Source of the DNA: Bacteroides faecis
Lineage (GTDB): Bacteria > Bacillota > Clostridia > Oscillospirales > Acutalibacteraceae
Direction of reading: 5' to 3'
DNA length: 63,171 nt
NCBI GenBank assembly: GCA_963625295.1
Contig: CAVFTC010000001.1
Span: 1-63,171 of the forward strand
Positions 13,639 to 60,780 of this stretch are shown here, one piece after another; within the stretch, counting starts at the first letter, position 1, and every line of letters begins with the position of its first letter. The position numbers were made by a program, and so were the translations under genes. The notes under the pieces are model-generated. The model had not been told where the DNA came from. It did not search any database and saw only the letters and a program-made list of their open reading frames with translations.

Positions 13639-13644
13639 GTTTTT

Positions 13645-19219: not shown

Positions 19220-19246
19220 TCTTGCTCACTTTCCTTTGTGATTCCT

Positions 19247-19414
19247 TTAAGGCAATACCGCATAATTGCGGTGAACGGATTGCGCAGTAAGATTTTTCAT
19301 CAGGTTGTACAAAAATTTTGAAGGCTTGCTGCCGCAAGTCAAAGAATTTTTGTGCAGCATGACGGAAACATATTCAAGTAAGGCGTGCACCTCAATTTTG
19401 CGGTGTTGCCTTAA
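19247..19414. mobile_element. Full-length ~168-bp MITE-like element, inverted relative to the 13471 copy
   Basis: Bounded by TTAAGGCA...TGCCTTAA. About nine in ten positions match the reverse complement of 13471-13638 by eye. Confidence 0.85.
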
Positions 19415-19452
19415 AAAAAGGCAGTGATTCCTAATCAGAAACCGCTGCCTTT
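19413..19452 (-). terminator. Probable terminator of the lipoprotein gene
   Basis: On the minus strand: GGCAGCGG...CACTGCC followed by TTTTTTT. Confidence 0.5.
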
Positions 19453-31495: not shown

Positions 31496-32959
31496 ATGAA
31501 CAAGAAAATGATAACCTATATTTTAGGTATTTTGCTTATAACCGAAGGAGCATTGCTCCTGCTGCCCATGCTTGTCGGCATTTACTACAAGGAGGATTTT
31601 CGTTCCTTCCTGTATTCGATAGCTGCGGCGGTGATCACGGGCTTCATTATGACCCGATTCAAGCCCAAGGATAAAACAATCGTTGCAGGCGACGGCTTTG
31701 CTATCGTTTCACTGGGATGGATTCTTATCAGTCTTTTCGGTGCTCTCCCCTTTTTCCTGAGCGGAGAAATTCCGAGCTATCTTGACGCCGTGTTTGAGGT
31801 CGTTTCCGGCTTCACGACAACAGGCTCAAGCATTCTGACCGATGTTGAAGCGCTGAGCAAGCAAATGATTTTCTGGCGAAGCTTCACCCACTGGGTCGGC
31901 GGCATGGGTGCGCTTGCCTTCATTATGGCGATTCTTCCTCTTGCCAAAGGCGGCGGAAACCTGCACCTAATGAAAGCGGAAAGCCCCGGACCGGATGTTG
32001 AAAAGCTTGTTCCGAAAGCAAAAAGCACAGCAAGAATTCTTTACGGAATTTATGTCATAATGACAATCGTGCTGATATTGCTGCTTCGCTGCGGCGGACT
32101 TTCGTTCTTTGAAAGCGCAACGCTGAGCTTCGGCACGGCAGGCACAGGCGGCTTCGCAATCGTCAATTCAAGCATCGCCGATTACAGCCTTTATACTCAA
32201 ATAATCATCGGCGTTTTCATGATGCTTTTCGGAATCAACTTCAACTTCTATTTTCTGCTATTCTGCGGAAAATTCAAATCTGCATTTAAAAATCTTGAGG
32301 TTCGCTCATATCTCGGCATCATGGGCACGGCAATACTTTTGATTGCATTCAATATCCGTCATATGTTCGGCTCGTTCCTTGAGGCGCTGCACCAGTCGGC
32401 GTTCCAGGTCAGCTCCGTAATGACGACTACGGGATATGCAACGACAGACTTCGACAAATGGCCGGAGTTCAGCAGAATGATAATGCTGATAGTTATGTGC
32501 GTCGGTGCTTGCGCCGGAAGCACAGGCGGCGGCTTCAAGGTTTCAAGGGTTGTTATACTTGCCAAATCAGCAAGGCGTGAGTTAAAAAAGCTTGCCCACC
32601 CGAGAAGCGTAAGCGTAATAACCATGGACGGCAAGCGTGTCAGCGACGAGGTTGTAACCGGAACAAACCTTTTCTTCTTTGTTTACATTGTCATTTTTGT
32701 TGCGTCCCTGCTTATCGTATCGCTGGATACTCAGGATATGGTCACGAATATTTCGGGCGTTATCGCAACGCTCAACAACATAGGTCCCGGACTCGGAAAG
32801 GTCGGTCCGCTCGGAAACTTCTCCGTCTACAGCTGGTATTCAAAGGTCGTATTTATCCTCGATATGCTGCTCGGCAGACTTGAGATTTTCCCGTTCCTAA
32901 TGCTTTTCACTCCAAAGCTTAAAAGGAGCAAAAAAATTAAGGCAATACCGCACAATTGA
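31496..32959 (+). CDS. trkH: Trk potassium uptake membrane subunit TrkH
   Basis: TrkH-type pore repeats (TTTG, GTGGF, TTTGYAT, GSTGGG). The last codons IKAIPHN* are encoded by the mini-MITE at 32937-32972. Confidence 0.9.
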   Translation: MNKKMITYILGILLITEGALLLLPMLVGIYYKEDFRSFLYSIAAAVITGFIMTRFKPKDKTIVAGDGFAIVSLGWILISLFGALPFFLSGEIPSYLDAVFEVVSGFTTTGSSILTDVEALSKQMIFWRSFTHWVGGMGALAFIMAILPLAKGGGNLHLMKAESPGPDVEKLVPKAKSTARILYGIYVIMTIVLILLLRCGGLSFFESATLSFGTAGTGGFAIVNSSIADYSLYTQIIIGVFMMLFGINFNFYFLLFCGKFKSAFKNLEVRSYLGIMGTAILLIAFNIRHMFGSFLEALHQSAFQVSSVMTTTGYATTDFDKWPEFSRMIMLIVMCVGACAGSTGGGFKVSRVVILAKSARRELKKLAHPRSVSVITMDGKRVSDEVVTGTNLFFFVYIVIFVASLLIVSLDTQDMVTNISGVIATLNNIGPGLGKVGPLGNFSVYSWYSKVVFILDMLLGRLEIFPFLMLFTPKLKRSKKIKAIPHN

Positions 32960-32972
32960 GGTGTTGCCTTAA
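32937..32972. repeat. 36-bp mini MITE derivative (both termini retained)
   Basis: TTAAGGCAATACCGCACAATTGAGGTGTTGCCTTAA. It supplies the trkH stop codon. Confidence 0.8.
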
Positions 32973-32986
32973 ATAACGCAAAAATA

Positions 32987-35849: not shown

Positions 35850-35881
35850 TTCTGTCGCTCCTTTCAAAGCATTCATTTTGT

Positions 35882-35917
35882 CAATGCCGCACATCTCAAT
35901 TGTGCGGATTTGCCTTA
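35882..35917. repeat. Solo MITE terminus (contains the internal CCGCACA/TGTGCGG hairpin)
   Basis: The reverse complement reads TAAGGCAAATCCGCACAATTGAGATGTGCGGCATTG. Its terminal TAA is the stop codon of the C-N hydrolase gene. Confidence 0.75.
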
Positions 35918-36721
35918 TAATTCATAGAGATCGGGTTTTCTGTCGTTGAAAACATTGATCGAGCTTCTTATATCCTTTATTATTCCGAAATCGCAGTCAG
36001 CTGTGATGACCTCCTGCGCCTCGCCTGCCGCAGCGAGCACCTCGCCCCACGGGTCGATTATCTGCGAATGACCGCCGAAAACTGCGTCCGGTGTTTTTCC
36101 GCAGGAGTTGCAGCAGACAACAAACATCTGATTTTCAATCGCTCTTGCTCTTGTGAGTGTAACGATGTGTTCCTTTCTCGCAAGAGGCCACTGCGACACC
36201 ATAAACAGCATGTCAATGCCCCTTAGGGCAAGGCTTCTGACAAGCTCGCAGAAGCGGATATCGTAGCAGATTACGACGCCGCACTTATGTCCGTCAAGCT
36301 CGAAGGTCACAAGCTTTTCGCCGAAGCTAAAATATTTGTGCTCGTCCATCGGGGTGAAAAGGTGCGTCTTGTCATATTCGGCAACGACATCGCCCTTACG
36401 GTTGAAAACAAACGCCGTGTTGTAAATCCCGCCGTTCTTTTCGTTGGCGATACTGCCGGCAACGATGTTTACATTAAGCTCCCTTGCCAACGCCGAAAAG
36501 GTCTTTTTCAGCCTCTCGCCGTCTTTGTCACAATAGCTCGAAAGATTTTCCTTGGGATAATATCCCGTCGTCCATGTTTCGGGAAGAACGATAACATCGG
36601 ATTTTTCTTTCGCTGCCGTCTCCCTTATCAGTCTGACAGCCTCGTTGTAGTTATATTCAACATCGCCGAGCTTCATATCAAGCTGAATGCAGGAAGCCTT
36701 CATTGTATTATTCATAATCAT
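35915..36721 (-). CDS. Carbon-nitrogen hydrolase (nitrilase/omega-amidase superfamily)
   Basis: Catalytic E-K-C contexts: VLPE, the Lys in YDKTHLF and the Cys in GVVICYDIRF. Alternative starts are 36739, 36715 or 36703. Confidence 0.8.
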   Translation of the reverse strand: MIMNNTMKASCIQLDMKLGDVEYNYNEAVRLIRETAAKEKSDVIVLPETWTTGYYPKENLSSYCDKDGERLKKTFSALARELNVNIVAGSIANEKNGGIYNTAFVFNRKGDVVAEYDKTHLFTPMDEHKYFSFGEKLVTFELDGHKCGVVICYDIRFCELVRSLALRGIDMLFMVSQWPLARKEHIVTLTRARAIENQMFVVCCNSCGKTPDAVFGGHSQIIDPWGEVLAAAGEAQEVITADCDFGIIKDIRSSINVFNDRKPDLYEL

Positions 36722-37247
36722 AACCTGCCTTGACAGCACCCTTGTTCACATCAAGGAGATCAAGGTGACGGGCGGAAACAACCTTCTTGAGTGCGTCATC
36801 GGTATAATCAATCGAAAACTGCGGCACTTCCTTGAGAATCTTGCCCGTGATTATCATATTCGCAAGGGTCGGCGTTCCGTTATCGTTCGCCATTTTTGTT
36901 GCAGGAATATAATATACATCAACATCTGTTCTGTCAATCTTTTTGTCGATCATTGTTGAATCAACAAAAATCTTTCCGCCGCTGACAACATCGTTTTCGT
37001 ATTTTTCAAGTGACGGAAGATTCATTGCAACAAGCACATCCGGCTTGTCAACGATTGGAGAGCCGATCGGCTCGTCGCTGATAATCACGGAGCAGTTGGC
37101 AGTGCCGCCTCTCATTTCCGGTCCGTAGGACGGAAGCCAGCTGACCTGCTTGCCCTCGATAAGTCCCTTATATGCAAGGAATTTGCCTGCAAACAGAATT
37201 CCCTGTCCGCCGAAGCCTGCGAATAACATTCTGCAAGTGCTGCTCAT
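36708..37247 (-). CDS. 2-oxoacid:ferredoxin oxidoreductase, gamma subunit
   Basis: 179 aa; the GFGGQGI motif typical of POR/KOR/VOR gamma subunits. Confidence 0.85.
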
Positions 37248-37999
37248 TTTTCTTCCTCCTTTGCATAGATATCCTTGTAAACGCCGAGAGGATAGTAAGG
37301 AATCATGTTCTCCTCTGCCCAGTCAAGAGCCTTCTGCGGAGTCATTCCCCAGTTTGTAGGGCAGGTTGAAATAACCTCAACGAGAGAAAAGCCCTTGCCC
37401 TCAAGCTGATTCTTGAATGCCTTTTTGATAGCCTTTTTAGCGTTCTTGACATTTTTTACATTGTTGACAGCAACTCTCTCAAGATATGCCGCACCGTCAA
37501 CATTTGAAAGAAGCTCGCAAACCTTAACGGGATAGCCGACGGTGTTGACATCTCTGCCGTAGGGTGAGGTCTGGGTGACCTGACCGGGAAGCGTTGTCGG
37601 AGCCATCTGACCGCCCGTCATACCGTAAATAGCATTGTTAACGAAAATAACGGTGATATTCTCCCGTCTTGCAGCGGCATGAACCGTCTCGGCAGTACCG
37701 ATAGCGGCAAGGTCGCCGTCGCCCTGATATGTGAATACAACCTTTGACGGGTCGCTTCTCTTAACGCCTGTTGCAACGGCAGGAGCACGGCCGTGAGCCG
37801 CCTGAACAAAATCACATGTGAAATAGTTATATGCCATAACAGAGCAGCCGACCGATGCGACGCCGATCGTATCACCCTCGATTCCAAGCTCATCAATTAC
37901 CTCTGCAACCAGACGGTGAATAATACCGTGAGTACAGCCGGGACAATAGTGAAGCGTTGCGTCCGTCAATGATTTCGGTTTTTCAAATACAACTGACAT
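37244..37999 (-). CDS. 2-oxoacid:ferredoxin oxidoreductase, beta (TPP-binding) subunit
   Basis: CPGCTHG, GDGD....G and [10 protein letters not shown] motifs. The start at 37999 overlaps the alpha stop (TAATG). Confidence 0.85.
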
Positions 38000-39057
38000 T
38001 ATTCTGCACCTCCGTTTGACATGATAGCCGAAAGAACATCCTCCGGCGTCGGGATCATTCCGCCGACACGGTTGCAAAGCTCAACCGGTCTTTTGCAATC
38101 GATCGCAAGCTTCACATCGTCGATCATCTGACCCATGTTCATTTCAACAGTTATAAATCTCTTGCACTTCTCGGCAGCAGCCTTGAGCGGCTTTGTCGGG
38201 AACGGCCAGAGCGTGATCGGTCTTATCATGCCGACCTTGACGCCTCTCTTGCGTGCCTCATTGACTGCGTTCTTTGCCACACGGGCGGTGATACCGAACG
38301 CAACAACGCAAACCTCGGCGTCCTCCATGAGATATTCCTCGTACATCGTTTCGTTTTCTTCGATCGTCTTATATTTCTGATATCTCTCGAAATTCTTTAT
38401 TTCAAGCTCCTCGGGCTTGAGGTAAAGCGAATTGACTATGTTATGCTCTCTCTCACACTTTGTGCCGGTGAGTGCCCACGGCTTTTCAACCGGAGTTACC
38501 TCGGCAACATCGAGGGAAACCGGCTCCATCATCTGACCCATTGTGCCGTCGGCAAGGATCATTGCAACCATTCTGTATTTATCCGCAAGCTCAAAGCCCT
38601 TGACGGTGAGGCTTGCCATTTCCTGAACGGAAGCCGGTGCAAGTACGATATTGTGGTAATCGCCGTGTCCGCCACCCTTTGTTGACTGCCAGTAATCCGA
38701 CTGTGAGGGCTGAATTCCGCCGAGTCCGGGGCCGCCACGCTGAACATTGACCACGAGTGCGGGAAGGTCGCAGCCGGCGAGATATGAAATACCCTCGCTT
38801 TTAAGCGAAACTCCGGGGCTGGAGGAGGAGGTCATGACTCTCTTGCCTGTTGACGAAACGCCGATAACCATGTTGATTGCAGCGATCTCGCTCTCCGCCT
38901 GCAGGAATGTTCCGCCGATCTTCGGCATACGCTTTGACATGTAAGCCGCAACCTCTGTCTGCGGAGTTATGGGATAACCGAAGTAATGTCGGCAGCCTGC
39001 TCTGATAGCAGCCTCGGCAATTGCTTCGTTGCCTTTCATAAGTACTTTATCTGACAT
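37999..39057 (-). CDS. vorB: 2-oxoacid:ferredoxin oxidoreductase, alpha subunit (VorB-like)
   Basis: [36 protein letters not shown]-terminus typical of VorB/KorA-type alpha subunits. The longer track ORF runs into the ferredoxin gene. Confidence 0.8.
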
Positions 39058-39062
39058 TTTCT

Positions 39063-39269
39063 TCACCTCTCTACCGTAATAACACAATCGGGGCACATTG
39101 TAGCGCAGAAGGCGCATCCGATACACTTTTCCTGTTCCGTCACAACTGCGGGATGATGTCCCTTGTTGTTCAAAGTCGTCTCTGACAAATGAACTATTCC
39201 CTTGGGACAAGCGTTCACGCAAAGTCCGCAGCCCTTGCAAAGGTCTGTTTTGAATGTTACTTTAGCCAT
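39063..39269 (-). CDS. 2x[4Fe-4S] ferredoxin (delta subunit)
   Basis: Two CxxCxxCxxxCP motifs in 68 aa. Confidence 0.9.
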   Translation of the reverse strand: MAKVTFKTDLCKGCGLCVNACPKGIVHLSETTLNNKGHHPAVVTEQEKCIGCAFCATMCPDCVITVER

Positions 39270-39281
39270 TTGACATTCCTC

Positions 39282-39938
39282 CTAATTTATTTTCGCCTGT
39301 AGGGTAAGCGGAAGCATATTGCTCACTCGCCCGTACAGCTCTTTATAAAGCGTCTTTTTTACGGTAGTCATCGCAACGGGAAGCCCCGTAAGCTTTGAAA
39401 CCTCATCGGCATATTTGAGCGAATCAAGAACATCCTGAGCGGTCGTCTCCTCGCCGAGATTTGAGTTGTTTATTATAGCCGTAAATTTCATTGAACCGGC
39501 TTTTTCGATTTCATTCATGACCTCAAGGGTGCTGTAAGCGTCCCTTGTCAGCGGTCTGTACATGTTTATTACAAGAAACATCTCATAGTCGTTTTCCCGT
39601 ACTATGCTTTCGGAATAGCGGCCGAGAGCGTATGCGCCTCTGTCGTCGCCGCCGATATCCATAACAGCGTATTCCGTGCGGTCGTCAATGACAGAATATA
39701 TATCCTGCGGCAGCGAGGGAAGATCAACATTTGAGCTTGCAAAGTCCGAGCAGATAAGTCTTATCCCGGCGGCTTTAAGCTCCTTTTCGCTGTCCTTGGT
39801 TCTGAAATACGGGTTGACGATATCCAAATCCGCAACAGCCACCTCAAGACCCTGCTGTCTGAGCTTAAAAGCGTAATTGACCGCTATATTCGTTTTTCCG
39901 CTGCCGTAATGACCGGCAAAAAGCGTTATGCGCTTCAT
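39282..39938 (-). CDS. MinD/ParA/CooC-like P-loop ATPase
   Basis: Deviant Walker A GHYGSGKTN; 218 aa; first gene of the oxidoreductase operon. Confidence 0.7.
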   Translation of the reverse strand: MKRITLFAGHYGSGKTNIAVNYAFKLRQQGLEVAVADLDIVNPYFRTKDSEKELKAAGIRLICSDFASSNVDLPSLPQDIYSVIDDRTEYAVMDIGGDDRGAYALGRYSESIVRENDYEMFLVINMYRPLTRDAYSTLEVMNEIEKAGSMKFTAIINNSNLGEETTAQDVLDSLKYADEVSKLTGLPVAMTTVKKTLYKELYGRVSNMLPLTLQAKIN

Positions 39939-39953
39939 TATTTCACCCCAATA

Positions 39954-39988
39954 TAGATTTTAGACTTTAGATTGTAGATATTAGATAT
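39954..39988. repeat. Five tandem heptads TAGATNN
   Basis: TAGATTT TAGACTT TAGATTG TAGATAT TAGATAT, 16 nt upstream of the P-loop gene start and overlapping its putative -10. Confidence 0.8.
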
Positions 39989-40000
39989 TCCGATAATCAA
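39971..40000 (-). promoter_or_regulatory. Candidate promoter of the P-loop/VOR operon
   Basis: On the minus strand: TTGATT, 18 nt, TACAAT. Confidence 0.4.
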
Positions 40001-40020
40001 ATCTTTAATATCTAATCGGT

Positions 40021-40330
40021 GTGCCAAACCTTAGGATAAATTGTTCAGCGTGCGTCGAGTTCAAGGCGACAGGCTGACGCAACTATGTGTATTGCTAAGT
40101 CTGTCAACGCAGAAATCGGCGTACCAAACCTTAGGATAAATTGTTCAAGGTGCGTCGAGTTCAAGGCAACAGGCTAACGCAATACTATGTGTATTGCTAA
40201 GTCTGTCAACGCAGAAATCGGCGTGCCAAACCTTAGGATAAATTGTTCAGGGTGCGTCGAGTTCAAGGCGACAGGCTGACGCAATACTATGTGTATTGCT
40301 AAGTCTGTCAACGCAGAAATCGGCGTGCCA
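40021..40330. repeat. Three head-to-tail ~101-bp direct repeats plus a 6-nt partial fourth unit
   Basis: Units at 40021-40120, 40121-40222 and 40223-40324. Unit 1 vs unit 3 differ by 1 substitution and a 2-nt indel; unit 2 vs unit 3 differ by 4 substitutions. Each unit holds a ~17-bp imperfect hairpin. Confidence 0.95.
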
Positions 40331-40338
40331 TGGACAAT

Positions 40339-42609
40339 TTACAGCTGATTACGGATGATTTTGCCGCTTATAGTCTTTGGAAGCTCGTCCTTGAACACAA
40401 CGATTCTCGGGTACTTGTAAGGAGCGGTGTGCTTCTTAACATAGTTCTGAATTTCTTTTTTAAGCTCCTCGGTCGGCTCTGTGCCCTTGGTAAGGACAAT
40501 GGAAGCCTTGACGACCTGTCCTCTTACCTCGTCGGGAGCAGCGGAAACGCCGCACTCAAGAACATAAGGAAGCTCCATGATAACATTTTCGATCTCGAAC
40601 GGTCCGATACGGTAGCCGGACGATTTGATAACATCGTCGATACGGCCGACATACCAGAAATATCCGTCCTCATCACGCCATGCGATATCGCCCGTGTGAT
40701 AAACGCCGTCGTGCCAAACCTCGTCTGTACGATCCTGATTTCTGTAGTAGCCGAGGAATATACCGCACGGTACTTTCTCGGAAGTGTTGACGCAGATTTC
40801 ACCGGTTTCACCGATATCCGCTTCCGTTCCGTCGGGACGAAGAATCTTGATGTCGTAAAGCGGCGTCGGCTTGCCCATTGAGCCGGGCTTCGGAGTCATT
40901 CCGGTGAGCGTTGCTATTCCAAGAGTCATCTCCGTTTGACCGAAGCCCTCCATAAGCTCAAGTCCGGTAGCATTATAGAACTGGCGGAATACCTCCGGGT
41001 TAAGTGCCTCACCGGCTGTTGTTGCGTGACGGATAGAGGAAAGATCGTACTTTGCGAGATCCTCCTTTATCATCATTCTGTACATCGTCGGAGGTGCGCA
41101 GAATGTTGTGATGTTATATTGCTTGAACATCGGAAGAATATCCGACGCATCGAAGCGGTCGAAGTTATATACAAATACTGCGCCCTCGCAGAGCCACTGT
41201 CCGTAGAGCTTGCCCCAAAGAGCCTTGCCCCAGCCGGTGTCGGAGATTGTAAGGTGAAGTCCGTCCTTGCTTACGCAGTGCCAATATTTAGCGGTGATAT
41301 AGTGTCCGAGCGGATATTTGTAGGAATGGGTTGCGATTTTCGGATAGCCCGTTGTGCCGGAGGTGAAGAACATAAGCATCGGATCGTTTCCGCACGGTGC
41401 GTCCTCTTCCCTTCTGTATCTTCTGGAGAACAGGCTGTATTCGCTGTCGAAGCTGTGCCAGCCCTCACGCTCGCCGCCGACAATGATTTTGTTGACGAGA
41501 GTATGCGTCTTTGCGTCGGCGATGTCAACCTGATGAGCGGTGTCGCCGTCGGCTGTGCAAAGAATTGTCGTTACTCCTGCCGCCTCAAATCTGTACTCAA
41601 AGTCATGGTCAACAAGAAGATTCGTTGCCGGAATTGCGATTGCGCCGATCTTATGAAGCGCAAGGATTGCAAACCAGAACTGATAATGACGCTTGAGAAC
41701 AAGCATTACCCTGTCGCCCTTCTTTATGCCGAGCGACTTGAAGTAGTTGGCCGCCTGTGCCGAGTGCTCCTTGACATCCTTAAATGTGAAGATGCGTTCC
41801 GTCTTATCGCGGTCAACATGAACGAGTGCACGCTTGTCAGGGGATTTTTTTGCAATTTTATCAACGATATCAAAAGCGAAGTTGAATTCATCCTCATGAT
41901 TAAAATCAATGGAAACAAGATTTCCGTTTTCGTCCTCTGTTGCGTCAATAAACTTCTCGCAAACATAGCTGCCCTTTGCCTTTACGCCCTTGACAGCTCT
42001 TTCGTGAACGATATTCGTTACCGTATCATCACTTGCCATGACCATCGCAAGGAAGAGACAATCCCTGCCGTCGATGGCAACCATTCCGTGAGGCGTTGAG
42101 GAGTTATAATAAATGCTGTCGCCCTCGTTAAGAATCTCCTCATGATTTCCGACTCTTACTCTCAGTGAACCGCTGATAACGATATCGAACTCCTGACCAC
42201 CGTGAGTTACGGTGCTTATCGGTTTATTTTCAAGCTCCGCGTCATACTCGTATCTAACCCAGTACGGCTCGGAAAGCTTTTTTCTGAAATTCGGTGCAAG
42301 GTTTTTGATTTCGATTCCGTTCTCGCTGGCGGTGATCTGACCCTTGCCCAGTCTTGTAACGGTATAGGATGAAAGCACGGCGCTGTGACCTTCAAGAAGA
42401 TCCGTAATGCCAATGTCAAAAGCAAGTGCACACTTGTGAATAAAAGTGAAAGGAAGGTCAACCGTTCCGCTCTCATAGAGCCTGTAGGTTTCAACAGAGA
42501 CTTCAGACTTCTCCGCCATTTCCTCAACGGTAAAGCCGCATATGTCTCTCATTTCCTGGATACGCTCAGCAACCTCATAAAGCTTGTTTGATTCGTTTTG
42601 ATTTGACAT
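40339..42609 (-). CDS. XRE-HTH + cupin domain fused to an AMP-forming medium-chain acyl-CoA synthetase
   Basis: N-terminal ~190 aa: HTH (ICGFTVEEMAEKSEVSVETYRLYESG) and cupin (GQEFDIVISGSL...YYNSSTPHGM). Remainder: ACSM/MacS-like ligase (MFFTSGTTGYPK, YGQTE, YHTGD, SGKIIR). Confidence 0.85.
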   Translation of the reverse strand: MSNQNESNKLYEVAERIQEMRDICGFTVEEMAEKSEVSVETYRLYESGTVDLPFTFIHKCALAFDIGITDLLEGHSAVLSSYTVTRLGKGQITASENGIEIKNLAPNFRKKLSEPYWVRYEYDAELENKPISTVTHGGQEFDIVISGSLRVRVGNHEEILNEGDSIYYNSSTPHGMVAIDGRDCLFLAMVMASDDTVTNIVHERAVKGVKAKGSYVCEKFIDATEDENGNLVSIDFNHEDEFNFAFDIVDKIAKKSPDKRALVHVDRDKTERIFTFKDVKEHSAQAANYFKSLGIKKGDRVMLVLKRHYQFWFAILALHKIGAIAIPATNLLVDHDFEYRFEAAGVTTILCTADGDTAHQVDIADAKTHTLVNKIIVGGEREGWHSFDSEYSLFSRRYRREEDAPCGNDPMLMFFTSGTTGYPKIATHSYKYPLGHYITAKYWHCVSKDGLHLTISDTGWGKALWGKLYGQWLCEGAVFVYNFDRFDASDILPMFKQYNITTFCAPPTMYRMMIKEDLAKYDLSSIRHATTAGEALNPEVFRQFYNATGLELMEGFGQTEMTLGIATLTGMTPKPGSMGKPTPLYDIKILRPDGTEADIGETGEICVNTSEKVPCGIFLGYYRNQDRTDEVWHDGVYHTGDIAWRDEDGYFWYVGRIDDVIKSSGYRIGPFEIENVIMELPYVLECGVSAAPDEVRGQVVKASIVLTKGTEPTEELKKEIQNYVKKHTAPYKYPRIVVFKDELPKTISGKIIRNQL

Positions 42610-42651
42610 GATTTTTACCTCCGTAACATACCGGGAACCGATTTCGGATAA

Positions 42652-42947
42652 AACAAAAAATCCGTCCCAAAGTCATTAGAACTTTGAGACGGATTTGAAT
42701 ATCCGCGGTACCACTCAAATTGCGATCTGCTATTGCTTCTCGCCTCTCTGCAGGATCTGACAATCCCTCAACACTGACGTAGTTGTCACGGGAGAAACTA
42801 CTGTAGTTTTCATCTCTCCGGCTCGGAAGTGATGGGCTTTACATTTACCTCGCTATCGGCTCGCACCAAACGCCGACTCTCTGAAAGGACATAAACGCAA
42901 CCGTCTTCGTCACAGCCTTTGTTTCAACAGGTTATTTGTACCTGTTG
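42652..42947 (-). promoter_or_regulatory. T-box riboswitch leader, putative Ile (AUC) specifier
   Basis: Minus strand shows a K-turn (TGACGAAG / CTTCCGAGCC), AGAGAG bulge, distal loop GGTGCGA, T-box AATTTGAGTGGTACCGCGG (42703-42721) and the terminator TCCGTCTCAAAG...CTTTGGGACGGA + TTTTTT. Confidence 0.85.
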
Positions 42948-42953
42948 CGGTAC

Positions 42954-42982
42954 ATTATAAGATACTTTTCACAATTTTTCAA
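42954..42982 (-). promoter_or_regulatory. Promoter of the T-box(Ile) leader
   Basis: On the minus strand: TTGAAA, 17 nt, TATAAT. Confidence 0.7.
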
Positions 42983-42991
42983 GGGATATTT

Positions 42992-43009
42992 TGTAATATA
43001 AGTATTACA
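42992..43009. promoter_or_regulatory. Palindromic operator candidate TGTAATA-N4-TATTACA
   Basis: Perfect 7-bp inverted repeat 9 nt upstream of the -35. An identical motif with identical spacing lies at 47278-47295. Confidence 0.6.
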
Positions 43010-43019
43010 TTGTGTAATG

Positions 43020-45518
43020 TTACGCAGTTACAACAGAATTTGCCTTTTGCAGTCCGTATTTCTTGATTGCGTCCTCACGCATCTTGTATTTAAGAATCTT
43101 ACCGGCAACATTCATCGGGAACTCGGACACAAAGTCAATGTACTTCGGCACTTTATGCTTCGCCATATGAGAAAGAACATAGTCCTTCATCTCCTGCTCG
43201 GTCATGGTTTCGCCCTCCTTGAGGATAATGCAAGCCATTATCTCCTCGCCGAGTCCCTCGTCGGGAACGCCGATTACCTGAACATCCTTGACCTTCGGGT
43301 GGGTGTAAATGAACTCCTCAATCTCCTTGGGATAGATATTCTCGCCGCCACGGATAATCATATCCTTAAGTCTGCCTGTGATTCTGTAGTTGCCCTCCGG
43401 AGTGCGGCACGCAAGGTCGCCGGTATGAAGCCAGCCGTCCTTGTCGATTGCGCTTGCCGTAGCCTTCGGCATTTTATAGTAACCCTTCATGATGTTGTAT
43501 CCACGGGCAACGAACTCACCGGTCACATTGTCCGGGCATTCAAGACCCGTATCGGGGTCAACGATTTTACATTCGATTTTCGGAAGCGGATGACCGACAG
43601 TAGCCACACGATCCTCCAGCGGGTCGTCAGTGCTGCTCATCGTACAGCCCGGAGATGATTCCGTCTGACCGTAAACGATTGTGATTTCGGTCATATGCAT
43701 TTTTTCGACAACCTCACGCATCTTTGAGATCGGACACGGCGAGCCTGCCATGATACCCGTTCTCATGTATGAAAAATCGGTCTTTTCAAAGTCGGGGTGC
43801 TGTAGCATTGCGATAAACATCGTCGGAACGCCGTGGAAAGCCGTTATACGCTCGGAATTTATACACGCAAGCGATGATTTCGGCGAGAAATACGGTAATG
43901 GGAGAGCCGTTCCGCCGTGGGTCATGATGGCAGTCATGGCAAGAACCATGCCGAAGCAATGGAACATCGGAACATGGATCATCATTCTGTCCGCCGTTGA
44001 AAGATCCATTCTGTCGCCGATACACTTACCGTTGTTTACGACATTGTAGTGGGTAAGCATAACGCCCTTCGGGAAGCCTGTTGTACCGGAGGTGTACTGC
44101 ATATTGCATACATCGTCCCTCCTGACAAGAGAAGCCATTCTGTAGACCTCCTCGACAGGAACCTCGCTCGACTTGTCAACCGCCTGCTCCCATGTCATAC
44201 AGCCCTGCTGCTCATAGCCGACCGTAATAATATTTCTCAAAAACGGCAATCTCTTTGCGTGGAGCTTTTCGCCGCTCTTGGTGCTTTCCAGCTCAGGGCA
44301 AAGCTCAGCCATGATCTCGTCATAGTGTGAGTCTCTGTAGCCCTTTATCATAATCAGCGTATGAGTATCCGACTGTCTGAGCAGATATTCCGCCTCGTGA
44401 ATTTTATATGCCGTGTTCATTGTAACAAGAACAGCGCCGATTTTGGTGGTCGCCCAAAACGAAATATACCACTGCGGAACATTGGTTGCCCAAACGGCAA
44501 CATGAGAGCCGGCTTTTACGCCCATTGCAATAAGCGCTCTCGCAAAGGTATCAACATCGTCACGGAACTGCGCATATGTTCTCGTATAGTCAAGCGTTGT
44601 ATATTTGAATGCAAGCTGATCGGGAAACTCCTCAACCATTCTGTCAAGAACCTGCGGGAATGTCTCCTCGATAAGCTCCTCTTTTTTCCAGATGAATTTG
44701 CCTGTATGGGTCTTGTTGTAGTAGTATTTCTTCTTGCTTGTCTCGTCCGCAACAGTCTCCATAAAGCTCTCATAATGAGTCAAAATGATTTCAAGATCGT
44801 CTATCGACTCGAACCACTCGGGATTCCATTCAACGCAAACAAAGCCGTTGTAATTTATCGAGCCGAGAGCATTCATCATGTCCTTGATAGGCATTGCGCC
44901 CTCGCCGATGAGAGTGTGCTCGCCTGCCTTCACGGCGTCGGTCAGATGGACAAGCTTGACATATGCGCCAAGGTTGGTAATGGTCTTTTCCGAATCCTCG
45001 CCGCCGACGAAGTATGTTTCATACATATTCCAATCTGCGCCGATAAAGTCGCTTGCAAAATAGTTCATCAAATCGCAGAGCCTTGTCGTGTCGGCAAAAA
45101 TGCCCGTCGTTTCGACAAGGACGATAACATTGTGCTTTTCGCCCTCTGCGATAGCCTTGCCGATGAACTCAAGCGCCTTTTCGTAAGCGTCTTCGCCACC
45201 CTCAACATAGAGCTTGACATAGGGAATGTTTATGTTGCTTGCAACGGTGATAGCCGAGTTCATTTTTTCAATATTTTCGTCGGAATTATCTGCGGCGTTG
45301 CAGTTTGAATTTATGCAAACTATGCTCTTTTTCGAGTTGATGAGCTTTCTTTTGGTTGCCGAAGCCATGTCAGGATTAAACGGTGAGGTTCTGCCTGAAA
45401 ACATTGCGTCACGAAAATCGTGGATCTCAACTCCGCCGTATTTCAGCTCATCCGCCATATTGAGAAAGTCATCAAAGCTTTTATTCTTATGAAATCTTGT
45501 AGAAAAAGCTAATTTCAC
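43020..45518 (-). CDS. Xylose-isomerase-like TIM-barrel domain fused to an AMP-dependent acyl-CoA ligase
   Basis: N-terminal ~270 aa resemble AP-endonuclease-2 / sugar-phosphate-isomerase TIM barrels. The C-terminal ~560 aa are a FadD-type ligase (MQYTSGTTGFPKGVMLTH, YGQTE, LHTGD, AGKILK). GTG start with a GGAGGG RBS, 2 nt after the upstream stop. Confidence 0.8.
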   Translation of the reverse strand: MKLAFSTRFHKNKSFDDFLNMADELKYGGVEIHDFRDAMFSGRTSPFNPDMASATKRKLINSKKSIVCINSNCNAADNSDENIEKMNSAITVASNINIPYVKLYVEGGEDAYEKALEFIGKAIAEGEKHNVIVLVETTGIFADTTRLCDLMNYFASDFIGADWNMYETYFVGGEDSEKTITNLGAYVKLVHLTDAVKAGEHTLIGEGAMPIKDMMNALGSINYNGFVCVEWNPEWFESIDDLEIILTHYESFMETVADETSKKKYYYNKTHTGKFIWKKEELIEETFPQVLDRMVEEFPDQLAFKYTTLDYTRTYAQFRDDVDTFARALIAMGVKAGSHVAVWATNVPQWYISFWATTKIGAVLVTMNTAYKIHEAEYLLRQSDTHTLIMIKGYRDSHYDEIMAELCPELESTKSGEKLHAKRLPFLRNIITVGYEQQGCMTWEQAVDKSSEVPVEEVYRMASLVRRDDVCNMQYTSGTTGFPKGVMLTHYNVVNNGKCIGDRMDLSTADRMMIHVPMFHCFGMVLAMTAIMTHGGTALPLPYFSPKSSLACINSERITAFHGVPTMFIAMLQHPDFEKTDFSYMRTGIMAGSPCPISKMREVVEKMHMTEITIVYGQTESSPGCTMSSTDDPLEDRVATVGHPLPKIECKIVDPDTGLECPDNVTGEFVARGYNIMKGYYKMPKATASAIDKDGWLHTGDLACRTPEGNYRITGRLKDMIIRGGENIYPKEIEEFIYTHPKVKDVQVIGVPDEGLGEEIMACIILKEGETMTEQEMKDYVLSHMAKHKVPKYIDFVSEFPMNVAGKILKYKMREDAIKKYGLQKANSVVTA

Positions 45519-46959: not shown

Positions 46960-47233
46960 AAAAAAACAAAGTCCCGGAAGTATTCAAACTTCCGGGACGA
47001 TAAAACATGTTTACCGCGGTACCACCCGCATTGCCTAAACGGCCTCTTCGGATTCTGACAAATCCTAAGCTGTGATAACGGTGCTTGCCGTAGCTCCTTA
47101 TACAGTAAAGACGGTTGGGGAGCTCTGCTCGGATACGAGACAGCAATTAAATTTCCATATCGGCTCACACCTACCGCCGACTCTCTGAAATCAGAAATAA
47201 AACGCTTAATATCTTCAACGCATTTCAAATATT
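46960..47233 (-). promoter_or_regulatory. T-box riboswitch leader, putative Leu (CUC) specifier
   Basis: Minus strand shows a K-turn (GCGTTGAAGATA / TATCCGAGCA), AGAGAG bulge, distal loop GGTGTGA, T-box GCGGGTGGTACCGCGG (47014-47029) and the terminator GTCCCGGAAG...CTTCCGGGAC + TTTGTTTTTTT. Confidence 0.85.
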
Positions 47234-48195: not shown

Positions 48196-48296
48196 TTAAG
48201 GCAACACCGCACAAATCGAGGCGCACGCCTTGTTCGGTAACCGCTGATTAAACCATAGCACAATTCGCACACCTCAATTGTGCGGTATTGCCTTAA
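48196..48296. mobile_element. Internally deleted (~101-bp) MITE derivative retaining both termini
   Basis: TTAAGGCAACACCGCACAAATCGAGGCGCACGCCTTG...ATTCGCACACCTCAATTGTGCGGTATTGCCTTAA. It encodes the araB C-terminal KAIPHN*. Confidence 0.85.
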
Positions 48297-49941
48297 TCTC
48301 TTTAAGACGCTTCATGACATTGTTCTCTCCCCTTCCGAAATAATCGTGGAGGGTTTTATACTCGGCAAAAAGCTTATCGTAAAGCTCAACATTCTCGGGA
48401 ATCGGATAATAGACCTTATCCTTGACCTTGCCGAGAGCTGCCGCACCGTCATAAAGGCTGTCATAGCCGCCCTTCTCCGCTCCTGCGGCACATGCGCCGT
48501 AAATCGCACTGCCGAGCGCACCGCCCTGTTCGCAGTCGGCGATCTTGATAGGCATATTGATAACATCGGCATAGATCTGCATCGTCATCGGATCCTTCTG
48601 ACTGATACCGCCTGCGGCATAGAAGGAGTTGACATCGACGCCGTTCTCTTTGAACACATCAATAATCATTCTTGTTCCGTAGGCCGTTGCTTCAATCAAG
48701 GCTCTGTAAATATCCTCGGGCTTTGTTCTGAGCGTCATTCCGAGTATCATACCCGAAAGATCCGCATCGACAAGCACAGAACGAACACCGTTCCACCAAT
48801 CAAGCGCAACAAGTCCGCTCTCGCCGGGCTTTTTCTGTTCACACTTTTGACGGAGGAATTTATGTATATTTACTCCCTGCTTCTCCGCCTCGTCATAGTA
48901 GCTCTTCGGCAGACAGTTGTCTATGAACCAGCTGAAGTGGTCGCCGACGCAGCACTGACCGGCTTCGTAAGCATAAAGTCCGGGAAGAATACCGTCGGCT
49001 ACAACGCCGCTGATGCCCGGTACGGGAATTTCCTCCTCGCTCAGAAGCATATGACAGGTTGAAGTACCCATGATAGCCAGCATCTCGCCCGGCTTCGTGA
49101 TGCCTACGGCAGGAACGAAAACATGAGCGTCAATGATAGGAACGGCAACAGCCGTGCCCTCCTTGAGTCCTGTCAGCTCGGCAAACTCAGCCGTGACCTC
49201 GCCCGCCTTTGAGCCGAGAGGAAGAATATCTCTTGAGAATTTCTCGTCAATAACATGCTCCATTCTTGGGTCAAGAGCTTTGAAAAACTCGTCCGACGGG
49301 TATCCGTTTTTCTTGTTCCACATGCCCTTGTAGCCGGCGCAGCAGGAATTGCGGATCTCATGACCGCACATCTGCCAGACGACCCAGTCGGCTGCTTCAA
49401 TAAAACGGTCGGCCTCGTCATAAATCTCGGGGGCTTCGTCAAGAATCTGCCAAAGCTTAGGAATCGCCCACTCGGAGGAAATCTTTCCGCCGTAGAGCTT
49501 GAGCCAGTCCTGATTCATCTTTTCGGCAATCTCATTGAGCTTTGTTGCCTGAGCCTGCGCGGCATGGTGCTTCCAGAGCTTAACATAAGCGTGCGGCTCG
49601 TCTTTAAACTTATCAATAAAGCAAAGCGGCGTGCCGTCCTTCTTGACGGGCATAACCGTGCAGGCGGTGAAATCAAGTCCAAGACCGATGATATCCTCCG
49701 CATTTACTCCGCTCTTTTTTATAACATCGGGAATCGTTGTTTTGAGCACATCAAGATAATCCTGCGGATCTTGAAGCGCCCAGTCGGCTCCGAGCTTTTT
49801 GCCGCTCGGAAGCGTCTCGTCCATTACGGCATGAGGATAATCGAGAACCGAGGTTGCAAGCTCCTCGCCTGTTTTCACATCAACGAGCAGCGTTCTGCCC
49901 GAAAGAGTACCGAAATCCACGCCGATTGCGTATTTAGCCAT
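48274..49941 (-). CDS. araB: Ribulokinase (FGGY family)
   Basis: 555 aa, closely colinear with Bacillus AraB: [39 protein letters not shown]. Confidence 0.9.
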
Positions 49942-56725: not shown

Positions 56726-56757
56726 AAAGCAATATCGCACAATTGAGATGCTGCACA
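56726..56757. repeat. Degenerate solo MITE terminus
   Basis: AAAGCAATATCGCACAATTGAGATGCTGCAC resembles the family terminus. It creates the spurious ATG at 56748. Confidence 0.5.
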
Positions 56758-60545: not shown

Positions 60546-60690
60546 GGCGCACGCTTTGCTTGAAGCTATTTCCGTCATGCTGCACAAAAATTCCTTGACT
60601 TGCGACAGCAAGCGTGCAAAATTTTTTTACAACCTGGCAAAAAATCTTACTGCGCAATCCGCACACCTAAATTGTGCGGTATCGCCTTAA
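60523..60690. mobile_element. Full-length ~168-bp MITE-like element, same orientation as the 13471 copy
   Basis: CCAAGGCAACGCCGCACAATTAAGGCGCAC...CACACCTAAATTGTGCGGTATCGCCTTAA, with the central core conserved. Confidence 0.85.
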
Positions 60691-60780
60691 AATCCATATT
60701 GTTATAAATAATTCAGGAAAGGCATTAAGTTATAAAGGATAACCGTTATGACAATGCCTTTCTTTTTTGGAGGTATCACA

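What the first reader, a model, noticed from the sequence alone, without database searches (positions are those of the whole stretch)
40021..40330. Unexplained triplicated ~101-bp unit with an internal long hairpin, between the acyl-CoA synthetase gene and the VOR operon
Three head-to-tail units of 100, 102 and 102 bp begin 8 nt after the synthetase stop codon and end about 80 nt upstream of the P-loop gene. Copies differ by only 1-4 substitutions and one 2-nt indel, so the duplication is recent or under constraint.

Each unit contains an imperfect ~17-bp inverted repeat, GACAGGCTGACGCAATAC-tatgt-GTATTGCTAAGTCTGTC. The two G-to-A changes in unit 2 fall at the terminal pair and at an already mismatched position, so they do not disrupt the stem.

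On the minus (transcribed) strand each unit also carries a perfect TTGACA followed 16 nt later by TAGTAT. This is a weak promoter candidate, and it is destroyed in unit 1 by the 2-nt deletion.

The array is not a CRISPR array because there are no spacers. It does not resemble the MITE family elsewhere in the window. Possibilities include a tandem structured RNA or processing site, a protein-binding array, or stacked promoters.
Basis: seen in the sequence. Interest (0 to 1): 0.62.

Follow-up and report, generated by a model that had tools for sequence, protein, structure and literature searches.

The report
Conserved tandem hairpin repeat from a MITE family
The triplicated 102-bp unit is real: it is a locally amplified copy of the conserved hairpin core of a widespread, uncatalogued family of small palindromic mobile repeats in gut Clostridia. 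At this one operon junction it is as conserved between species as a riboswitch, so it probably regulates the neighbouring genes, though how is not yet shown.

Summary
In detail: window 40014-40330 holds 3.1 head-to-tail copies of a 102-bp unit. The array starts 8 nt from the acyl-CoA synthetase stop codon and ends about 75 nt before the P-loop/VOR genes.

- **Not an artefact or orphan.** Four metagenome runs show 3-5x unitig depth on the unit. Related Acutalibacteraceae (Ruminococcus sp. CAG:488-like species) carry 1 to at least 7 units at exactly this junction, including recombinant units.
- **Family membership.** A covariance model built only from other genomes' copies finds all three units (E 1e-12 to 1e-16). 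They are the apical ~95 nt of a dispersed family of ~165-nt palindromic, MITE-like repeats (inverted ends, TA/TWA flanking duplications). These occur in many Oscillospirales, match no Rfam family, and turned up in no paper I could find.
- **Structure.** The hairpin covaries strongly and folds much better on the + strand, antisense to the operon (G-U versus A-C cells: 137 vs 28 in the family, 86 vs 19 at the locus).
- **Constraint.** The unit beside the stop codon is 92-98% identical between species where its stem type is the same. Synonymous sites in the adjacent gene are only ~70% identical, and the T-box leader is 93-96%.

Best reading: an exapted, amplified repeat module acting in cis at the operon junction, through hairpins and/or internal promoters of the form TTGACA-16-TAGTAT. 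The mechanism is inferred, because no strand-resolved RNA data were obtainable.

The parts
40014..40330 (+). Tandem array: 3.1 copies of a 102-bp unit (unit 1 is 100 bp)
   Evidence: Tandem Repeats Finder; unit alignment; unitig depth 3-5x the flanks in four metagenome runs
40039..40132 (+). Unit 1 core. It matches the family covariance model; a 2-nt deletion shortens the apical stem
   Evidence: cmsearch 53.9 bits, E 1.8e-12, with a model built only from other genomes' copies
40139..40234 (+). Unit 2 core; matches the family covariance model
   Evidence: cmsearch 64.9 bits, E 1.5e-15
40241..40336 (+). Unit 3 core, the terminal unit beside the synthetase stop codon. It is the best family match and the most conserved unit between species
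   Evidence: cmsearch 68.2 bits, E 1.8e-16; 92-98% identity across species for same-type units
40239..40341 (+). Extended terminal hairpin. The outer stem TAAATTGTTCA/TGGACAATTTA includes the complement of the synthetase stop codon (40339-40341)
   Evidence: Fold: + strand -52.3 kcal/mol (z -8.7), - strand -34.6 kcal/mol (z -4.2)
40281..40299 (+). Apical palindrome GCAATAC-TATGT-GTATTGC of unit 3. Unit 2 has the same at 40179-40197; unit 1 has a shortened version at 40079-40095
   Evidence: This is the conserved apex of the dispersed family (AATACTTTGTGTATT), but here the loop has A where the family has T
40284..40311 (-). Sigma-70-like site TTGACA-16-TAGTAT in unit 3, reading toward the P-loop/VOR genes
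   Evidence: Consensus scan, 10 of 12 matches. The same motif occurs at the locus in 17 of 18 related species examined
40182..40209 (-). Sigma-70-like site TTGACA-16-TAGTAT in unit 2
   Evidence: Consensus scan
39971..40000 (-). Promoter-like TTGATT-18-TACAAT in the A+T-rich spacer just upstream of the P-loop gene. Context only; not part of the repeat
   Evidence: Consensus scan, 9 of 12 matches
40339..42609 (-). Upstream gene: AMP-binding acyl-CoA synthetase with N-terminal HTH_3 and cupin domains. Its stop codon lies in the base of the terminal hairpin
   Evidence: Pfam; ORF list
39282..39938 (-). Downstream gene: P-loop (CbiA/ParA-like) NTPase, first gene of the 2-oxoacid:ferredoxin oxidoreductase cluster
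   Evidence: Pfam
42682..42922 (-). T-box leader controlling the synthetase (context). Specifier codon read as AUC (Ile)
   Evidence: Rfam RF00230, 103 bits

Best explanation
**What it is (shown).**
- Each unit is the ~95-nt conserved core hairpin of a dispersed family of ~165-nt palindromic, MITE-like repeats found across Oscillospirales.
- One copy entered the junction between the synthetase stop codon and the P-loop/VOR genes in the ancestor of a genus-level Acutalibacteraceae clade.
- It lost the outer arms that carry the family's terminal inverted repeats (TIRs).
- It has since expanded and contracted by unequal exchange of a 102-bp segment: 12 nt of left flank plus the element minus its last ~11 nt.
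- Species now carry 1 to at least 7 units, and some units are recombinants.
- It is kept under purifying selection as strong as that on the T-box leader.

**How it most likely works (inferred).** I think it acts in cis on expression at this operon junction, in two ways.
1. The terminal unit forms a long hairpin that starts at the synthetase stop codon. It would mark or protect the 3' end of that T-box(Ile)-controlled cistron in the read-through transcript.
2. The units carry - strand sigma-70-like promoters (TTGACA/TTGGCA-16-TAGTAT). These could let the shared P-loop/VOR genes be expressed independently of the T-box terminator. Copy number would then tune promoter dosage.

I put about 0.9 on the identity and selection part, and about 0.55 on 'cis-regulatory at the operon junction'. 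I cannot say which of the two modes dominates.
For: **Identity**
- A covariance model built from 54 dispersed copies in other genera, with no locus sequence included, finds the three units full-length on the + strand. E-values are 1.8e-16, 1.5e-15 and 1.8e-12; the next best window hit has E 0.05.
- Copies are ~160-167-nt hairpins. Identical TAA or TTA flanks 6 of 8 copies with clean boundaries. One copy is nested inside another with a TA duplication.

**Structure**
- At the locus: 28 pairs, 11 of them with compensatory changes.
- In the family: 89% of cells paired vs 65% in shuffles and 36-52% in slid controls; 409 double-change cells vs 146 in shuffles.

**Amplification**
- Copy number runs from 1 to at least 7 at the same site in about 20 species-level genomes and metagenome contigs, with hybrid units.
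- Unitig depth on the unit is 3-5x the flanks.
- The inter-unit linker matches the left flank of the single-copy version in L088.

**Selection**
- Same-type terminal units are 92-98% identical between species. The synthetase gene beside them is 68-74% identical at third codon positions, and the T-box leader is 93-96%.
- The element is present in the whole close clade. It is absent at this junction, and anywhere in the stored flanks (up to 6 kb each side), in the other 75 related loci. L007/L008 have the stop codon followed directly by the ribosome-binding site and ATG.

**Promoter mode**
- 10 of 12 consensus matches in units 2 and 3.
- A TTGNNN-16-TAGTAT site on the gene-sense strand occurs in 17 of 18 species loci, usually with a 5-6 of 6 match in the -35 hexamer.
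- The loop A that creates the first T of the -10 hexamer is present in nearly every unit at this locus. None of the 54 dispersed copies has it; they read TTTGT, giving AAGTAT.
- In several species the unit closest to the P-loop gene has a broken lower stem but keeps these hexamers.
- Functional logic: two T-boxes in series (Leu, then Ile) lie upstream of a single VOR cluster.
Against: - **No transcript evidence.** No strand-resolved RNA data could be obtained for the window, so no transcription start, 3' end or processing site has been shown.
- **Strand of the structure.** The structure is clearly better on the + strand, antisense to the operon. The G-U pairs at the base of the outer stem are invariant or nearly so (24/24 and 20/24 units). 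A - strand mRNA hairpin would not need this.
- **Extent of conservation.** A promoter alone would not explain conservation of the whole 92-nt unit, nor the compensatory changes in the stem.
- **No terminator.** No U-tract follows the hairpin on either strand.
- **Weak promoter evidence.** The promoter matches are consensus matches only. Unit 1, the one nearest the P-loop gene in the window, lacks the site. The window also has a separate promoter-like site at 40000-39971.
Confidence: 0.55

Rival explanations
1. The functional molecule is a + strand RNA: an antisense or independent structured RNA made of tandem hairpin units. The conserved apex would be recognised by a conserved host protein or RNA. 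The array would be a multi-site RNA, such as a sponge or an antisense regulator of the operon junction.
For: - The + strand folds far better: the array at -136.7 kcal/mol (z -7.1) vs -106.3 (z -2.5), and the terminal unit at -52.3 vs -34.6.
- G-U versus A-C cells are 86 vs 19 at the locus and 137 vs 28 in the family.
- At-locus changes follow wobble paths on the + strand. One pair runs U-A to U-G to C-G across L084, L083 and L085/L097; others show G-C to G-U and U-G to C-G.
- The whole unit is conserved, not just short motifs.
Against: - No + strand promoter reaches the scan threshold upstream of or inside the array, and no terminator follows it.
- Every neighbouring gene is on the - strand.
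- There is no RNA evidence.
- The strand asymmetry is largely inherited from the parent repeat family, so it need not reflect function at this locus.
- Rfam gives no match.
Confidence: 0.2
2. The element acts as DNA. The hairpin extrudes from the + strand as single-stranded DNA or a cruciform, or the apical palindrome is a double-stranded operator. A protein would bind it: a transposase or recombinase of the parent repeat, a nucleoid protein, or the HTH-cupin domain fused to the neighbouring synthetase. The array would be a set of binding sites.
For: - The parent family behaves like mobile DNA: inverted ends, TA/TWA duplications and a nested insertion.
- The apex is a 19-bp near-perfect palindrome overlapping the -10-like hexamer.
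- The upstream gene encodes an XRE-type HTH plus cupin domain.
- Orientation of the dispersed copies correlates weakly with gene direction (32 antisense vs 15 co-directional) and with GC skew (46 negative vs 29 positive).
- G-T wobbles also stabilise DNA hairpins.
Against: - A sequence-specific operator would not tolerate the covarying stem types found side by side in one array.
- No cognate transposase or autonomous element was found in the loci held.
- Host-level conservation of a transposase site at a fixed locus is hard to explain.
- Relatives without the array have the same fused HTH-cupin synthetase arrangement, with no spacer at all.
Confidence: 0.12
3. It has no host function: a decaying remnant of a selfish repeat whose copy number drifts through replication slippage or unequal crossing-over.
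For: - Copy number varies freely from 1 to at least 7, with hybrid and truncated units.
- This junction is a hotspot for other small palindromic insertions in relatives.
- The unit derives from a mobile family.
Against: - Same-type terminal units are 92-98% identical across species that are ~70% identical at synonymous sites in the adjacent gene, matching the T-box leader.
- The element is retained in every member of the clade examined.
- No other copies exist in these genomes that could act as conversion donors.
Confidence: 0.07
4. Assembly artefact: a single unit wrongly expanded during assembly.
For: Short-read assemblies often mis-count tandem repeats. L092 contains an assembly gap inside its array.
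Against: - The three units differ from each other at specific positions.
- Unitig depth is 3-5x the flanks in four independent runs.
- Independent assemblies of related species contain 2-7 units.
Confidence: 0.01

Closest known systems
BOX elements of Streptococcus pneumoniae (boxA-(boxB)n-boxC)
   Same: Small non-coding, hairpin-forming intergenic repeats in which one internal module is tandemly amplified to a variable number of copies. They lie in transcribed intergenic regions and have been reported to influence neighbouring gene expression (from my own knowledge of the literature).
   Different: No sequence relation was tested or is expected. BOX elements are dispersed in more than 100 copies per genome. 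Here the amplified module sits at a single locus in its genome, is highly conserved between species, and derives from a family with terminal inverted repeats and TA/TWA duplications.
ERIC / IRU repeats of enterobacteria
   Same: Imperfect palindromes of about 127 bp in transcribed intergenic regions. They are conserved in sequence, have been reported to show RNA-level constraint (compensatory changes, strand-specific pairing), and have orientation-dependent effects on mRNA stability (from my own knowledge).
   Different: Different phylum and sequence. ERICs are not usually tandemly amplified. In the present family only the apex is conserved, while the outer arms differ between subfamilies.
Correia elements (CREE/NEMIS) of Neisseria
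   Same: MITEs of 100-155 bp with inverted ends and a TA duplication. They fold into long hairpins when transcribed, can be cut by RNase III, and can supply promoter hexamers to neighbouring genes (from my own knowledge). That is the same pair of modes proposed here.
   Different: Correia promoters lie at the element ends rather than in the apex. There is no tandem amplification of an internal module and no sequence relation.
REP / BIME / REPIN elements
   Same: Intercistronic palindromes that stabilise the upstream cistron in polycistronic mRNAs. When close to a stop codon they have been reported to affect translation termination of the upstream gene (from my own knowledge). The terminal hairpin here begins at the stop codon.
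   Different: REPs are 20-40 nt, occur in alternating orientations within BIMEs, have no terminal inverted repeats or target duplications, and are mobilised by RAYT transposases. The units here are 102 bp, all head-to-tail, and in antisense orientation relative to their best-folding strand.
The window's own MITE family (terminal repeat AAGGCAAyACCGCACAATT; e.g. 13471-13645, 60522-60696)
   Same: In Lawsonibacter and other genera, copies of the hairpin family carry this same type of terminal inverted repeat (L113, L118, L131, L156).
   Different: The window's MITEs have a different interior and score only E 0.1-3 against the family model. The array units lack these terminal repeats.

Membership tests
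Dispersed Oscillospirales hairpin-repeat family defined here (apex AAGGCG-stem-GCAGGAATAC-TTTGT-GTATTTCAAG-stem'-CAACGCAG) | Significant full-length match to a covariance model built from copies in other genomes | tested here: met
   68.2, 64.9 and 53.9 bits (E 1.8e-16, 1.5e-15, 1.8e-12), model positions 1-96 of 96, + strand. No locus sequence was used to build the model.
Dispersed Oscillospirales hairpin-repeat family defined here | The same helix architecture (outer stem, AAGGCG/CAACG internal loop, variable inner stem, conserved apical stem and pentaloop), with pairing favoured on the same strand | tested here: met
   RNAalifold on the locus units gives the same architecture as on the dispersed copies. 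G-U versus A-C cells: 86 vs 19 at the locus and 137 vs 28 in the family.
MITE (miniature inverted-repeat transposable element) | Short (<300 bp) with no coding capacity | tested here: met
   Most frames are closed by stops. The one frame that stays open over most of a unit continues the synthetase frame only in the window and L092, and is closed in the other species.
MITE | Terminal inverted repeats at the element ends | tested here: not met
   Dispersed relatives have them. The window units lack the outer ~35-nt arms; only the last unit has an 11-bp stem extension. The units are therefore a derivative of a MITE-like element, not MITEs themselves.
MITE | Target-site duplication flanking the element | tested here: inconclusive
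   Dispersed copies: identical TAA or TTA on both sides in 6 of 8 copies with clean boundaries, and a TA duplication at a nested insertion. At the window locus the flanks read TAA...TTA, which is inverted rather than direct, so it is uninformative.
MITE | Many dispersed copies in the same genome | tested here: not met
   Within the 63-kb window the array is the only place that matches. In clade genomes both pattern scans hit only this locus. Other genera have several dispersed copies per genome. The rest of the window's genome was not available.
MITE | A cognate autonomous insertion sequence with the same ends | tested here: inconclusive
   No full-length element with matching ends was found in the ~0.9 Mb of loci held. 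Whole genomes were not searched.
CRISPR array | Short direct repeats separated by unique spacers of similar length | tested here: not met
   Units abut head-to-tail with no unique spacers.
Any Rfam 15 RNA family | Match to a curated covariance model | tested here: not met
   Nothing in the array even at E <= 10. Nothing on the dispersed copies at gathering score, and only one chance-level hit (a microRNA-precursor model, E 6.8) on one of them at E <= 10.
Sigma-70-type promoter | -35 and -10 hexamers with 16-18 nt spacing | tested here: met
   TTGACA-16-TAGTAT in units 2 and 3 on the - strand, 10 of 12 matches. Five sites were found in the region against 1.3 expected. The motif is conserved at the locus in 17 of 18 species.
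Sigma-70-type promoter | A transcription start downstream of the -10 hexamer | not testable with these tools
   No strand-resolved reads map to the window. All runs holding family members are stored as undirected contigs.
Intrinsic (Rho-independent) terminator | G+C-rich hairpin followed by a U-tract | tested here: not met
   No terminator-like site in the array on either strand. The only one in 39700-40600 lies at 39921-39935, inside the P-loop gene.
REP/BIME | 20-40-nt palindromes in alternating orientation, associated with a RAYT transposase | tested here: not met
   Units are 102 bp and all in one orientation. RAYT association was not tested.

The most novel reading that the evidence does not exclude
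The conserved apex (AAGGCG / GCAGGAAUAC-UUUGU-GUAUUUCAAG / CAACGCAG) may be a recognition module for a conserved Oscillospirales factor, acting on a single-stranded nucleic acid of defined polarity. Elements with quite different terminal repeats share it, and it always folds best on the same strand. If so, this would be a new class of structured non-coding RNA or single-stranded-DNA element that rides on MITEs. The array in this window would be a domesticated multi-copy version that regulates branched-chain amino-acid salvage genes.
Probability: 0.2. Interest if true: 0.75.

Novelty: new variant of a known kind. Interest (0 to 1): 0.5.

Why it matters
- **An uncatalogued repeat family.** Small palindromic repeats (REP, ERIC, BOX, Correia) are well studied in Proteobacteria, Neisseria and pneumococci but hardly described in the dominant gut Clostridia. 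This finding exposes a large, strongly structured, strand-asymmetric family across Oscillospirales. It matches no Rfam family and turned up in no paper I could find.
- **A clear case of exaptation.** A fragment of such a repeat sits inside a T-box-controlled operon for what looks like branched-chain amino-acid synthesis from branched-chain fatty acids. It has been kept under riboswitch-level constraint while its copy number varies between species.
- **A tractable test system.** It offers a way to ask how mobile hairpins are recruited as regulatory parts, and what recognises the conserved apex.
- **A practical warning.** Such arrays break short-read assemblies. Several relatives' contigs end, or contain gaps, at this spot.

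Tried and rejected
- **Coding repeat.** The 102-nt period is a multiple of 3, and the - strand frame continuing from the synthetase is open for long stretches in the window. I rejected this because the frame relation shifts by 1 nt in most relatives, which then have a stop in every unit.
- **Known RNA family.** None in Rfam, even at E <= 10.
- **CRISPR, terminator, riboswitch.** The anatomy does not fit.
- **Phage or plasmid origin.** One hit among 2.9 million viral contigs and none in the plasmid collection.
- **Exact 24-mer scan of genome representatives.** No hits; looser patterns were needed.
- **RNA evidence (all uninformative):**
  - The two runs labelled 'RNA-Seq' that hold the region are 454 'GENOMIC' libraries of related species at 90-95% identity.
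  - Four raw-read RNA runs had no reads on 35.9-45.6 kb.
  - Mouse-gut metatranscriptome contigs contain a family member inside longer contigs, but without strand information and possibly with DNA carry-over.
- **Literature.** Two full-text searches, by topic and by sequence string, found nothing relevant.
- **Autonomous element.** A search for one with the family's ends in the loci held found none.
- **Strand asymmetry as post-insertion mutation bias.** Rejected. The same strand folds better in 106 of 108 copies, while their orientation relative to genes and GC skew is only about 2:1.
Full report
**Observation**

Tandem Repeats Finder reports one strong array at 40014-40330: period 102, 3.1 copies, 94% matches, score 578. 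Aligning the three units shows 1-4 substitutions and a 2-nt deletion in unit 1. Two 24-mers from the unit occur only in the array, three times each, with none expected by chance.

All neighbouring genes are on the - strand:
- An AMP-binding acyl-CoA synthetase with N-terminal HTH_3 and cupin domains (40339-42609), preceded by a T-box leader (42682-42922).
- A P-loop CbiA/ParA-like gene (39282-39938).
- Three 2-oxoacid:ferredoxin oxidoreductase subunits and a carbon-nitrogen hydrolase.

The array begins 8 nt from the synthetase stop codon and ends 75-82 nt from the P-loop start.

**The multi-copy state is real, and the site is shared**

In four metagenome runs whose flanks are nearly identical to the window, the unit's unitig has 3-5 times the word depth of the flanks.

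The P-loop protein places the window in Acutalibacteraceae, close to Ruminococcus sp. CAG:488. In that clade the same junction holds the same unit in different numbers:
- One unit in L088, L089 and L005.
- Two in L081, L082 and L084.
- Three or partial sets in L091 and L108.
- At least seven in L092, which has an assembly gap inside its array.

These genomes are separate species, with 82-94% nucleotide identity in the flanking genes. Some units are recombinants, joining the left arm of one stem type to the right arm of another. That points to unequal exchange.

The 12-nt linker between units matches the left flank of the single-copy version in L088. The repeated segment is therefore [12 nt of flank + the element minus its last ~11 nt]. 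Only the last unit keeps the full outer stem. That stem runs from 40239 to 40341 and includes the complement of the stop codon.

Of 80 loci encoding relatives of the P-loop protein, only the five closest carry the element. More distant relatives such as L007/L008 have the synthetase stop codon followed directly by the ribosome-binding site and ATG. The insertion is therefore derived, and the ancestral state is a tight operon.

**Structure**

RNAalifold on 24 locus units predicts one long hairpin of 28 pairs. It has an outer stem, an internal loop AAGGCG/CAACGC, a variable inner stem, a small internal loop, and an apical stem GCAATAC/GTATTGC with a pentaloop. Eleven pairs show compensatory double changes, for example ACAGGCT/AGTCTGT versus GTGAGCC/GGCTCAC versus ACAAATT/AATTTGT.

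Pairing is much better on the + strand:

| Measure | + strand | - strand |
|---|---|---|
| Whole intergenic stretch, kcal/mol (z) | -136.7 (-7.1) | -106.3 (-2.5) |
| Single unit, kcal/mol | -44 | -31.6 |
| Terminal hairpin, kcal/mol | -52.3 | -34.6 |
| Cells forming standard pairs | 95% | 85% |

G-U cells outnumber A-C cells 86 to 19. The G-U pair at the base of the outer stem is invariant in all 24 units, and its U-G neighbour is kept in 20 of them.

The unit is not coding. Most frames carry stops, and the open - strand frame seen in the window is lost in most relatives through a 1-nt shift. No Rfam family matches, even at E <= 10.

**The unit belongs to a large dispersed family**

The hits are often several per genome and come from Oscillospiraceae, Ruminococcus, Anaerotruncus, Lawsonibacter, Pseudoflavonifractor, Dysosmobacter and Acutalibacteraceae.

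These copies are imperfect palindromes of about 160-167 nt. They share the apex AAGGCG-[7-8-nt stem]-GCAGGAATAC-TTTGT-GTATTTCAAG-[stem']-CAACGCAG. Their outer arms fall into several different types. One type (AAGGCAAyACCGCAyAATT) is the terminal repeat of the window's own MITEs, although those MITEs have a different interior.

Evidence that the family is mobile DNA:
- Where boundaries are clean, identical TAA or TTA flanks both ends in 6 of 8 copies.
- In L167 one copy sits inside the arm of another with a TA duplication.
- Together these features are MITE-like.

Evidence for membership and structure:
- A covariance model built from 54 dispersed copies (<85% identical to one another, no locus sequence included) finds the three window units full-length on the + strand, at E 1.8e-16, 1.5e-15 and 1.8e-12. 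The next window hit has E 0.05.
- In the family alignment 89% of cells pair, against 65% in shuffles and 36-52% when partners are slid. There are 409 double-change cells against 146 in shuffles.
- The same strand folds better in 106 of 108 copies (mean -86.5 vs -67.9 kcal/mol). G-U versus A-C cells are 137 vs 28.

The forward strand lies antisense to both neighbouring genes twice as often as co-directional (32 vs 15, p 0.02, using crude gene calls), and mostly on the strand with negative GC skew (46 vs 29). This is the same arrangement as in the window. It suggests either selection against placing the strong hairpin in mRNAs or on exposed template DNA, or a strand-biased insertion mechanism.

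The family matches no Rfam model and is essentially absent from viral contigs and plasmids. Two full-text searches found nothing.

**Selection at the locus**

Where the unit next to the stop codon is of the same stem type as the window's, it is 92-98% identical to the window's across species. In those species the adjacent synthetase gene is 68-74% identical at third codon positions and 97-99% at positions 1 and 2. Between the same species the T-box leader is 93-96% identical and its upstream spacer 84-91%.

The rest of the intergenic region is not even alignable between subclades. No other copies exist in these genomes that could act as conversion donors. The unit is therefore under purifying selection as strong as that on a riboswitch. 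This argues against the 'junk repeat' reading.

**How it may work**

This part is inferred. No strand-resolved RNA data could be obtained:
- The two 'RNA-Seq' runs that hold the region are 454 genomic-type libraries of related species.
- Four raw-read RNA runs gave no reads.
- Mouse-gut metatranscriptome contigs contain a family member (L181 3196-3361) inside longer contigs with various flanks. These contigs are undirected and may include DNA.

Two cis-acting modes fit the anatomy.

1. *Hairpins in the read-through operon transcript.* The terminal hairpin starts at the stop codon, and even the weaker - strand version reaches -34.6 kcal/mol (z -4.2). REP, ERIC and Correia elements act this way.
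2. *Internal promoters for the P-loop/VOR genes.*
   - TTGACA, TTGGCA or TTGTCA followed 16 nt later by TAGTAT occurs on the gene-sense strand at this locus in 17 of 18 species.
   - The loop A that creates the first T of the -10 hexamer is present in nearly every unit at the locus and in none of the 54 dispersed copies.
   - In several species the unit closest to the P-loop gene has lost its lower stem but keeps these hexamers.
   - In the window's subclade that proximal unit is replaced by an A+T-rich element with its own promoter-like TTGATT-18-TACAAT site.
   - The logic is plausible. Two T-box leaders in series each control one fused acyl-CoA synthetase. I read their specifier codons as CUC (Leu) and AUC (Ile) from the Rfam alignment. 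A single VOR cluster lies downstream, so it would benefit from a promoter that bypasses the second T-box terminator.

Against both modes, the + strand pairing bias and the invariant G-U pairs point to a + strand single-stranded form. Conservation also covers the whole unit. I therefore keep a + strand structured RNA (0.2) and a DNA-level binding or extrusion element (0.12) as live rivals.

**Comparison with known systems**

The closest analogues are BOX elements (tandem amplification of an internal module), ERIC (conserved, RNA-constrained palindromes in operons), Correia elements (TA-duplicating MITEs that give hairpins and promoters) and REP/BIME (intercistronic stabilisers near stop codons).

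The array units are members of the dispersed family defined here (model match met). They are not themselves MITEs: terminal repeats are lacking, target duplication is uninformative, and there are no dispersed copies in this genome. They are not CRISPR, not a terminator and not any Rfam family.

**Verdict**

This is a real, conserved, polymorphic tandem array derived from a new family of a known kind of element. It is most likely exapted as a cis-regulatory part of a branched-chain amino-acid salvage operon.

- Interest is moderate (0.5). The kind of element is familiar. The family is large and undescribed, its conserved strand-specific apex is unexplained, and the locus gives a clean example of constraint on a repeat-derived sequence.
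- The most novel reading not excluded is that the apex is a recognition module of a new class of structured RNA or single-stranded-DNA element (probability about 0.2).

Noticed in passing
window 42682-42922 (-) and 46990-47227 (-), with genes 35915-45518: Two T-box leaders each precede a fused AMP-binding acyl-CoA synthetase. I read their specifier codons from the Rfam alignment as AUC (Ile) and CUC (Leu). One synthetase carries HTH_3 plus cupin domains; the other carries a xylose-isomerase-like TIM barrel. Downstream lie a P-loop gene, VOR/POR subunits and a CN hydrolase. The layout looks like tRNA-sensed synthesis of branched-chain amino acids from branched-chain fatty acids by reductive carboxylation.
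   Followed up: partly
window 39954-39986: An A+T-rich heptad repeat (TAGATTT, 4.7 copies) lies between the array and the P-loop gene. Its unitig depth is 2-4x the flanks, with loose ends, in metagenome runs, so it is repeated elsewhere in the genome. It appears in inverted orientation in L089 and carries a promoter-like TTGATT-18-TACAAT site (40000-39971, - strand).
   Followed up: partly
window 75-119, 13471-13645, 19246-19420, 32936-32977, 35880-35924, 48196-48302, 56726-56754, 60522-60696, 63130-63171: A separate MITE family of about 150-175 bp with terminal repeat AAGGCAAyACCGCACAATT. The same terminal-repeat type flanks copies of the hairpin family in Lawsonibacter and other genera (L113, L118, L131, L156), but the window's copies have a different interior.
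   Followed up: partly
L094 ~90-420, L095 3090-3360, L199 821-1028: In some Clostridia the family hairpin sits next to a second, oppositely oriented hairpin inside an outer palindrome of about 270 nt, making a composite two-hairpin element.
   Followed up: no
L167 6670-6990 and L163 640-960: One family copy (GGCGCC-type arms) is inserted into the left arm of another (AAGGAAGC-type arms) at a TA that is duplicated. This is direct evidence that the family is, or was, mobile.
   Followed up: partly
L002, L004, L020/L084, L098-L101: the same synthetase/P-loop junction: In several relatives the junction also holds other small palindromes, such as GGGTCGATGTGGGCATCGACCC and GCCTTCCCTCAAGGGGAAGCC followed by a T-run. 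Several contigs end here. The site is an insertion hotspot and an assembly breakpoint.
   Followed up: no
window 20699-20873 and 51983-52063: Short-period (9-42 nt) G+C-rich tandem repeats, probably low-complexity coding repeats. They are unrelated to the finding.
   Followed up: no
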